Shown here: positions 30,755 through 30,773 of the stretch, piece by piece
How positions within the stretch are numbered: the first letter of the stretch is position 1
Layout of the letters: the number at the start of each line of letters is the position of its first letter
Source of the DNA: Escherichia coli
GTDB taxonomy: Bacteria; Pseudomonadota; Gammaproteobacteria; Enterobacterales; Enterobacteriaceae
Length of the DNA: 64,000 nt
Strand: one strand, 5' to 3'
Assembly: GCF_045037415.1 (NCBI RefSeq)
Contig: NZ_CP173438.1
Position numbers and translations under genes: made by a program
The notes under the pieces: generated by a model
Told to the model about the DNA's origin: nothing
The model's input: only the letters and a program-made list of their open reading frames with translations
Database searches by the model: none

Positions 30755-30773
30755 ATAAATTATTCTCATTATT
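30755..30773 (+). promoter_or_regulatory. putative Fur box upstream of iha
   Basis: ATAAATTATTCTCATTATT, about 12 of 19 matches to GATAATGATAATCATTATC; 50 bp upstream of the iha ATG. Confidence 0.35.

What the first reader, a model, noticed from the sequence alone, without database searches (positions are those of the whole stretch)
30755..30773. Candidate Fur box upstream of iha
iha encodes a siderophore receptor, and ATAAATTATTCTCATTATT 50 bp upstream of its ATG has a partial match to the Fur consensus; the match is weaker than the iucA box.
Basis: inference. Interest (0 to 1): 0.25.

Follow-up and report, generated by a model that had tools for sequence, protein, structure and literature searches.

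The report
Known Fur operator of iha
The AT-rich 19-mer upstream of the E. coli siderophore-receptor/adhesin gene iha is part of a real but already documented binding site for the iron repressor Fur, so the finding is correct and ordinary.

Summary
The sequence ATAAATTATTCTCATTATT is at 30755-30773, and 51 nt separate it from the iha ATG at 30825.

**Chance test.** Counted against the 19-bp Fur consensus it is weak: 12/19 on the + strand and 13/19 on the - strand. Matches that good appear in 13% of local shuffles. A weight matrix learned de novo from 18 E. coli K-12 Fur-regulated promoters gives a clearer answer:
- The best site is 30753-30771, at 18.2 bits.
- It is the third-best locus in the 64-kb window, after the iucA box and a strong site at 59184-59210.
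- Local shuffles reach that score with P of about 0.004.
- The score lies inside the range of the training sites.

**Conservation.** The core AATTATTCTCATT (30758-30770) is invariant in 11 iha alleles, including alleles only 75-86% identical upstream.

**Published evidence.** In CFT073 the upstream 225 nt differ at only two bases. A published Fur ChIP-seq summit lies 15 nt from the same site, and iha is derepressed 181-fold in a fur mutant. Fur control of iha was first reported in 2006.

**Verdict.** This is a genuine Fur operator and it is already known. In vivo occupancy is not lower than at iucA. The transcription start could not be fixed here.

The parts
30753..30771 (+). Best-scoring Fur site, ATATAAATTATTCTCATTA. 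It sits in the register of the de novo K-12 motif TTGATAATCATTATCATTT.
   Evidence: It scores 18.2 bits, rank 5 in the window. Local shuffle P is 0.003-0.005. The same site scores 18.2-19.7 bits in 10 alleles and 12.4 bits in the most divergent allele.
30749..30773 (.). 25-bp hexamer array GCAAAT ATAAAT T ATTCTC ATTATT (forward-forward-x-reverse-reverse).
   Evidence: An independent PWM from published CFT073 motifs gives 15.0 bits for 30755-30773 on the - strand and 14.4 bits for 30749-30767 on the + strand, ranks 7 and 8 in the window. The hexamer reading comes from the sequence and is inference.
30751..30770 (.). Block conserved across iha alleles. All 20 nt are invariant in 7 alleles. The core 30758-30770, AATTATTCTCATT, is invariant in all 11 alleles.
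   Evidence: Alignments A1 and A2. It is the second-longest invariant run upstream of the ATG, after the ribosome-binding-site region 30801-30824.
30722..30741 (.). Weak auxiliary Fur-like match about 30 nt upstream. It may allow Fur binding to extend along the DNA.
   Evidence: It scores 7.2 bits with PWM 1 (30723-30741) and 8.3 bits with PWM 2 (30722-30740). This is a weak match and the role is inference only.
30720..30748 (+). Candidate sigma-70 promoter A: TTGTCA, 17 nt, TAAAAG. The start would fall near 30755, so the operator would cover about -6 to +18.
   Evidence: It matches 9/12 in a relaxed scan. It lacks the T at -10 position 6, so the scan tool did not report it. It is not verified.
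30763..30792 (+). Candidate sigma-70 promoter B: TTCTCA, 18 nt, TATTGT. The start would fall near 30799, so the operator would cover the -35 hexamer.
   Evidence: It matches 8/12. The spacer is broken by a 6-bp duplication in the pO113-type allele, and the -10 hexamer is altered in APEC 102026. It is not verified.
30811..30814 (+). Shine-Dalgarno GGAG, 10 nt before the ATG.
   Evidence: Read from the sequence. It is invariant in all alleles.
30825..32915 (+). iha coding sequence (696 aa), a TonB-dependent catecholate siderophore receptor and adhesin.

Best explanation
Window 30749-30773 is the Fur operator of iha. When iron is sufficient, Fe(II)-Fur dimers bind this array of GATAAT-like hexamers, probably as two dimers on opposite faces. 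The array has a strong right half (ATTCTC ATTATT) and a degenerate left half (GCAAAT ATAAAT). It lies 52-76 nt upstream of the start codon and so overlaps the core promoter. Binding there excludes RNA polymerase. When iron is scarce Fur leaves, and iha is transcribed together with the neighbouring aerobactin genes.

Shown here: the statistical strength of the site, its conservation, and its coincidence with a published ChIP-seq summit. Taken from the literature: in vivo Fur occupancy and Fur/iron-dependent expression. Inferred: the two-dimer geometry and the overlap with the promoter.
For: (1) Gibbs sampling from random starts on 18 K-12 Fur-regulated intergenic regions recovered the Fur motif in 8 of 8 runs. 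With that PWM, 30753-30771 scores 18.2 bits. This lies within the leave-one-out range of the training promoters (5.9-24.8, median 21.5) and above 6 of the 18.

(2) Specificity. The site is the third-best locus in 64 kb. Local dinucleotide shuffles reach its score with P = 0.003-0.005. Non-training K-12 DNA gave no hit of 14 bits or more except the real mntH box.

(3) An independent PWM from published CFT073 motifs ranks the two overlapping 19-mers 7th and 8th in the window.

(4) Conservation. 30751-30770 is invariant in 7 alleles, and 30758-30770 in 11, while 53 of 218 upstream columns vary.

(5) Published data for CFT073, which differs at 2 of the 225 nt upstream of the ATG (none in the first 76 nt of the gene) and has an identical site. 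The Fur ChIP-seq summit is at 3450905 and the site at 3450920-3450938. RNA-seq fur-/wt is 181-fold and ryhB-/wt is 1.

(6) Positive controls for the coordinate mapping. Four other summits from the same table fall 0-19 nt from PWM hits in this window: c3597, c3634, c3636 and iucA.

(7) A review states that iha is repressed by iron via Fur, citing Rashid 2006.
Against: - The plain consensus match is only 12-13/19, which 13% of local shuffles reach.
- The authors of the ChIP-seq study searched about 300 bp around each summit with the consensus string at q < 0.02, and iha is absent from their motif table.
- The conservation signal is moderate on its own. An invariant run of 20 or more somewhere upstream arises in 15% of label shuffles, and 11.5% of 19-column windows have one or fewer variable columns.
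- In the most divergent allele the site falls to 12.4 bits.
- No sigma-70 promoter was found on the + strand by the standard scan, so the overlap with the promoter is inferred.
- The primary paper (Rashid 2006) could not be read, so I could not check which nucleotides it assigned to the Fur box.
Confidence: 0.9

Rival explanations
1. The 19-mer is a chance Fur-like string in AT-rich, horizontally acquired promoter DNA. Fur control of iha would then act through another site under the same ChIP peak, or indirectly.
For: The 12-13/19 consensus match is common: 29 window positions reach 13/19 or better, and local shuffle P is 0.13. iha is missing from the published motif table. ChIP-seq resolution cannot separate sites a few tens of nt apart.
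Against: No other position between 30600 and 30830 scores above 10.2 bits, and the runners-up are 6-nt-shifted overlaps of the same array. The weighted score is far above chance. The site is the conserved block of the promoter. ryhB deletion has no effect on iha, which argues against indirect control through RyhB.
Confidence: 0.05
2. The conserved AT-rich block is mainly a core-promoter or nucleoid-protein element, such as a -10-like or UP-like tract or an H-NS nucleation site. Its conservation would then reflect that role rather than Fur binding.
For: AATATAAATT (30752-30761) matches 7 of 10 positions of the H-NS high-affinity motif TCGATAAATT. I recalled that motif from the literature and compared it by eye, without a tool. 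The region is AT-rich island DNA flanked by IS elements. TATAAA/TAAATT-like hexamers lie inside the block.
Against: The invariant core is the Fur right half, ATTCTCATT. This same 9-mer occurs in the K-12 ryhB and feoA boxes, and variants differing at one base occur in fhuA, fecI and exbB. It is not an H-NS-like or -10-like sequence. Fur occupancy and 181-fold fur dependence are published. This reading is compatible with Fur binding rather than exclusive of it.
Confidence: 0.05

Closest known systems
Fur box of E. coli iha as reported by Rashid, Tarr & Moseley 2006 (Microb Pathog 41:207) and the CFT073 Fur ChIP-seq peak at iha (Banerjee et al. 2020, mBio, PMC7157518)
   Same: Same gene and the same promoter sequence. 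The window differs from CFT073 at 2 of 301 nt, and the site is identical. The regulator and the direction of regulation are also the same.
   Different: No difference in biology. I could not read the 2006 paper to compare box coordinates. The 2020 paper reports the peak but no motif for iha. The nucleotide-level placement given here, 30749-30773 with best register 30753-30771, is my own computation.
Aerobactin iucA P1 Fur operator, present in the same window at 54263-54281 (GATAATGAGAATCATTATT)
   Same: Both are arrays of GATAAT-type hexamers and share the GAGAAT/ATTCTC hexamer. Both control an iron-uptake function on the same pathogenicity island, and both are ChIP-seq-positive in CFT073.
   Different: iucA matches the consensus 17/19 and scores 20.5-25.5 bits. 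iha matches 12-13/19 and scores 15-18 bits, because its left half is degenerate. Despite this, the published ChIP height and fur derepression are higher at iha: 649 against 341, and 181-fold against 119-fold.
K-12 Fur boxes with an ATTCTCATT right half (ryhB, feoA; one-base variants in fhuA, fecI, exbB)
   Same: iha shares 15 of 19 positions with the ryhB box ATAATAATCATTCTCATTC, including the whole ATTCTCATT half (the count was made by eye).
   Different: iha has TAAAT where these boxes have ATAAT/GATAA. It loses about 3 bits at PWM positions 4-5.
Vibrio cholerae irgA promoter (Fur box plus the divergent LysR-type activator IrgB), the homologue after which Iha is named
   Same: Both are iron-repressed TonB-dependent receptor genes with a Fur box at the promoter. 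This rests on my own knowledge of the irgA literature and was not tested here.
   Different: No irgB-like gene lies upstream of iha. The upstream DNA is an IS3 element plus short ORFs with no Pfam match. An IrgB-type activation step is therefore not expected.

Membership tests
E. coli Fur operator (Fur box) | Sequence match to the Fur binding motif beyond what local base composition gives | tested here: met
   The de novo K-12 PWM gives 18.2 bits, with P = 0.003-0.005 in local dinucleotide shuffles. An independent PWM gives 15.0 and 14.4 bits, ranks 7 and 8 in 64 kb. The plain 13/19 consensus count alone is not significant, with P = 0.13.
E. coli Fur operator (Fur box) | Arrangement as three or more adjacent GATAAT-like hexamers, or overlapping 7-1-7 inverted repeats | tested here: met
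   GCAAAT ATAAAT T ATTCTC ATTATT matches the hexamer consensus at 4, 3, 5 and 5 of 6 positions. Overlapping 19-mers score on both strands at a 6-nt offset. The hexamer count was made by eye.
E. coli Fur operator (Fur box) | Position at or overlapping the promoter of the regulated gene | tested here: inconclusive
   The site lies 52-76 nt upstream of the ATG. The transcription start is unknown to me. Two weak promoter candidates both overlap the array, and the standard scan found none on the + strand.
E. coli Fur operator (Fur box) | Fur occupancy in vivo or in vitro | not testable with these tools
   Published CFT073 ChIP-seq has a summit at 3450905 with height 649. The identical site is at 3450920-3450938. 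This is a literature result for an identical sequence and was not measured here.
E. coli Fur operator (Fur box) | Fur- and iron-dependent expression of the downstream gene | not testable with these tools
   Published RNA-seq fur-/wt is 181-fold. A review cites Rashid 2006 for repression by iron via Fur.
E. coli Fur operator (Fur box) | Conservation of the site among diverged copies of the promoter | tested here: met
   The core 30758-30770 is invariant in 11 alleles that are down to about 75% identical upstream. Statistical support from conservation alone is moderate.
Iha / TonB-dependent catecholate siderophore receptor (the downstream gene) | Full-length match to the curated equivalog model above its cutoff | tested here: met
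   NF010012 scores 1615.6 bits against a cutoff of 924 and covers residues 1-696 of 696. RefSeq annotation agrees in identical genomes.

The most novel reading that the evidence does not exclude
iha's operator is a 'half-degenerate' Fur site that consensus-string searches miss; it is absent from the motif table of the published ChIP-seq study. Even so, published in vivo occupancy and repression are at least as strong as at the near-consensus iucA box. If the difference is real, the extended forward-forward-x-reverse-reverse array, or cooperation with the weak upstream match at 30722-30741 or with nucleoid proteins, would be compensating for poor half-site quality. That would offer a small natural test case for how Fur affinity is set by array architecture rather than by consensus identity.
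Probability: 0.2. Interest if true: 0.25.

Novelty: already known. Interest (0 to 1): 0.1.

Why it matters
Iha is a virulence-associated adhesin and siderophore receptor. Its promoter region is found in about 28% of complete E. coli genomes (1511 of 5426). Knowing that iha is switched on by iron starvation through Fur explains its expression in urine and the gut, and its co-regulation with aerobactin on the same island. All of this is already in the literature. The analysis here adds a nucleotide-level placement of the operator, evidence that the right half-site is the conserved part, and a caution that consensus counting under-calls this site.

Tried and rejected
**Primary papers not held.** I tried to read Rashid 2006, Leveille 2006, Tarr 2000 and Herold 2009. 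None is in the library. The originally published Fur-box coordinates and transcription start therefore could not be compared. A search for 'iha promoter' plus 'Fur' found nothing.

**Promoter scan.** The standard promoter/terminator scan found no + strand promoter upstream of iha. It found only a 9/12 match on the - strand, within chance expectation. A relaxed scan gave two weak + strand candidates that I cannot choose between.

**Genome scan.** I scanned 100,044 species-representative genomes for the invariant 20-mer AAATATAAATTATTCTCATT. This returned 13 hits, all in unrelated organisms (Bacteroidota, Clostridia, Lactobacillus, an archaeon and others) and none in Enterobacterales. No cross-species footprint was possible, so conservation rests on E. 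coli alleles only.

**Consensus counting.** I tested plain consensus match-counting and rejected it as a significance criterion for this AT-rich region, since local shuffle P is 0.13.

**Upstream ORFs.** Pfam scans of the two short ORFs upstream of iha, looking for an irgB-like remnant, gave no match.

**Mapping error, corrected.** I first mapped the strong Fur cluster at 59184-59210 next to a DUF1471 gene, assuming colinearity with strain SK1144. That was wrong, because SK1144 carries an extra 1.3-kb IS3 copy. The notebook entry written therefore has the wrong neighbours. The corrected context is given under things noticed.

Full report
**What is at the coordinates.** Positions 30755-30773 read ATAAATTATTCTCATTATT. 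A 696-codon ORF starts at ATG 30825, preceded by GGAG at 30811-30814. It is iha:
- The protein matches the NCBIfam equivalog NF010012 over its full length, at 1615.6 bits against a cutoff of 924.
- The 501 nt spanning 30400-30900 are 100% identical to many ST131-type chromosomes, where RefSeq annotates 'bifunctional siderophore receptor/adhesin Iha'.
- The promoter region is found in 1511 of 5426 complete E. coli genomes.

The window is a pathogenicity island. It carries a sialic-acid gene cluster, an IS3, iha, sat, iutA-iucDCBA and shiF, followed by IS remnants.

**Is the match more than chance?** Against the classical consensus GATAATGATAATCATTATC the 19-mer matches 12/19 as written and 13/19 on the other strand. 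The iucA box at 54263-54281 matches 17/19. Counting matches is not convincing here. Twenty-nine positions in the window reach 13/19, and 13% of dinucleotide-preserving shuffles of the local AT-rich region do so.

I therefore built a weight matrix without using the consensus. I fetched 18 Fur-regulated intergenic regions from K-12 MG1655: fepA-fes, fepD-entS, fepB-entC, fhuA, fur, fiu, fhuE, tonB, cirA, exbB, fecI, feoA, ryhB, sodA, sufA, mntH, fhuF and nfeF. I then ran a Gibbs sampler from 8 random starts. All eight runs converged on the Fur motif, with best register TTGATAATCATTATCATTT. With this matrix:
- The best site upstream of iha is 30753-30771 (+), ATATAAATTATTCTCATTA, at 18.2 bits.
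- This is rank 5 of about 128,000 strand-positions in the window, and the third distinct locus. Only a cluster at 59184-59210 (21.6-23.1 bits) and the iucA box (20.5 bits) score higher.
- Leave-one-out scores of the training promoters run from 5.9 to 24.8 with a median of 21.5, so iha lies inside the range of real sites.
- P(max >= 18.2) is 0.003-0.005 in 5000 local dinucleotide shuffles.
- In about 124 kb of K-12 DNA outside the training regions, the only hit of 14 bits or more was the genuine mntH box, which I had accidentally excluded.

A second, independent matrix was made from 12 CFT073-specific Fur motifs printed in a published table, leaving out iucA and shiF.

**Anatomy.** The two overlapping 19-mers on opposite strands, together with a further 10.2-bit hit at a +6 offset, describe a 25-bp array: GCAAAT ATAAAT T ATTCTC ATTATT, at 30749-30773. 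This is two forward and two reverse GATAAT-like hexamers around a central base. The right half is good and the left half is degenerate. The score loss is at PWM positions 4-5. This arrangement is what the hexamer and 7-1-7 descriptions of Fur operators expect for two dimers on opposite faces. That geometry is inference from established models and was not tested here.

**Conservation.** I aligned the window with 10 other iha alleles:
- O157:H7
- four other chromosomal alleles
- a strain with an IS66-family element inserted at 30740
- three plasmid alleles about 85% identical
- one allele from APEC 102026 about 75% identical

Among the first seven sequences, 53 of 218 upstream columns vary. The two longest invariant runs are 30801-30824 (the ribosome-binding region) and 30751-30770, which is the Fur site. 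Across all eleven, AATTATTCTCATT (30758-30770) is invariant. The site scores 18.2-19.7 bits in ten alleles and 12.4 bits in the most divergent one, always at the same position. Conservation alone is only moderate evidence: an invariant run of 20 or more somewhere upstream occurs in 15% of label shuffles. It does, however, coincide with the predicted site.

**Experimental evidence in the literature.** Banerjee et al. [quoted passage not shown]
- ChIP-seq summit height 649 at NC_004431.1:3450905
- RNA-seq fur-/wt 181-fold
- ryhB-/wt 1
- fur-ryhB-/wt 362-fold

I fetched that region. CFT073 differs from the window at 2 of 301 nt, and the identical site lies at 3450920-3450938, 15 nt from the summit.

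As controls, other summits from the same table map onto PWM hits in this window:

| Summit | Height | Position | Site in CFT073 | Window equivalent |
|---|---|---|---|---|
| c3597 | 3620 | 3440893 | 3440891-3440917 | 59184-59210 |
| c3634 | 16.25 | 3474111 | 3474114-3474134 | 25433-25453 |
| c3636 | 22.4 | 3475848 | 3475853-3475871 | 23696-23714 |
| iucA | 341 | 3469166 | 3469185-3469203 (published motif) | 54263-54281 |

That study searched about 300 bp around each summit with the consensus string at q < 0.02. iha is not in its motif table, which fits the weak 13/19 match. A review states that iha is repressed by iron via Fur, citing Rashid, Tarr & Moseley 2006. I could not obtain that paper.

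**Mechanism.** The best-supported reading is classical Fur repression. Iron-loaded Fur occupies 30749-30773 and blocks the iha promoter. Iron limitation or loss of fur releases it.

What I could not establish is the transcription start. The standard scan finds no + strand promoter. A relaxed scan gives two candidates:
- TTGTCA-17-TAAAAG at 30720-30748. The start would be near 30755 and the operator would cover -6 to +18.
- TTCTCA-18-TATTGT at 30763-30792. The start would be near 30799 and the operator would cover the -35 hexamer.

Both overlap the array, and both are imperfectly conserved among alleles. The sequence match is weaker than at iucA, but the published ChIP height and derepression are higher at iha. 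'Weaker box' should therefore not be read as weaker regulation.

**Rivals.** A pure chance match, with Fur acting at another site under the peak, is unlikely. Nothing else between 30600 and 30830 exceeds 10.2 bits, and the runners-up are shifted overlaps of the same array. A role of the AT-rich block as an H-NS or core-promoter element is possible alongside Fur binding. It does not explain why the invariant part is the Fur half-site ATTCTCATT, which is also found in the K-12 ryhB and feoA boxes, with one-base variants in fhuA, fecI and exbB.

**Verdict.** The feature is an already known regulatory site of a well-studied virulence gene. Interest is low.

Noticed in passing
window 59184-59210: This is the strongest Fur-type site in the window: three overlapping hits of 21.6-23.1 bits and a 16/19 consensus match, GCAAATGATAATCATTGTC. 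It equals CFT073 3440891-3440917, exactly under a very high published Fur ChIP-seq summit ('c3597', 3440893, height 3620). It lies between an ISL3 transposase fragment (58149-58895) and a truncated hypothetical ORF followed by an IS3. It looks like an orphan operator left from an iron-regulated gene destroyed by IS insertions.
   Followed up: partly
window 23696-23714 and 25433-25453: These are two weak Fur-like sites (12-16 bits) inside genes of the sialic-acid cluster, an alpha/beta hydrolase and the N-acetylneuraminate epimerase. They map 3-5 nt from two low published CFT073 ChIP-seq summits: c3636 (height 22.4) and c3634 (height 16.25). They are probably weak intragenic binding without an obvious regulatory role.
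   Followed up: partly
window 54263-54281: The classical aerobactin iucA/shiF divergent-promoter Fur box, GATAATGAGAATCATTATT on the - strand. It matches 17/19 and scores 20.5-25.5 bits. It is identical to the motif published for CFT073.
   Followed up: yes
window 56679-56697: A PWM hit of 17.2 bits, TTAATAAATTTTTTCATTT. It lies at the 5' end of a DUF417-family gene, just downstream of a TetR-family regulator gene. I did not check it against the full ChIP-seq peak list or for conservation.
   Followed up: no
window ~30704-30886, - strand: RefSeq annotates a 60-aa 'hypothetical protein' antisense across the iha promoter and start codon in many genomes. It is a pseudogene with an internal stop in SK1144 and in this window. 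It is most likely a spurious gene call in AT-rich promoter DNA.
   Followed up: partly
window 30418-30740 (upstream boundary of the iha module); L039, L022, L021, L017: Homology upstream of iha ends at different points in different strains: 30418, 30469, 30554, 30613 in the plasmid alleles, and 30740 in strain BRG214. In several strains an IS element abuts the break: an IS66-family fragment in 2011C_4037, IS600 in AREA_R504 and ISEc23 in BRG214. The BRG214 insertion removes everything upstream of TTGTAAAAGG, including the TTGTCA hexamer, but keeps the Fur array. It is a natural deletion that could be used to map the promoter.
   Followed up: partly
L019:402-676 (pO113-type plasmid allele), insertion after window 30772: The O113:H21 plasmid copy of iha has a 6-bp TTGTTT duplication immediately after the Fur array. 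This changes the distance between the operator and the downstream promoter-proximal sequence by half a helical turn.
   Followed up: no
window ~55560 versus SK1144 879126-880354: The window is colinear with strain SK1144 except for an extra 1332-bp IS3 copy in SK1144 after shiF and a further difference near 62 kb. In CFT073 the same modules are arranged in a different order and orientation.
   Followed up: partly
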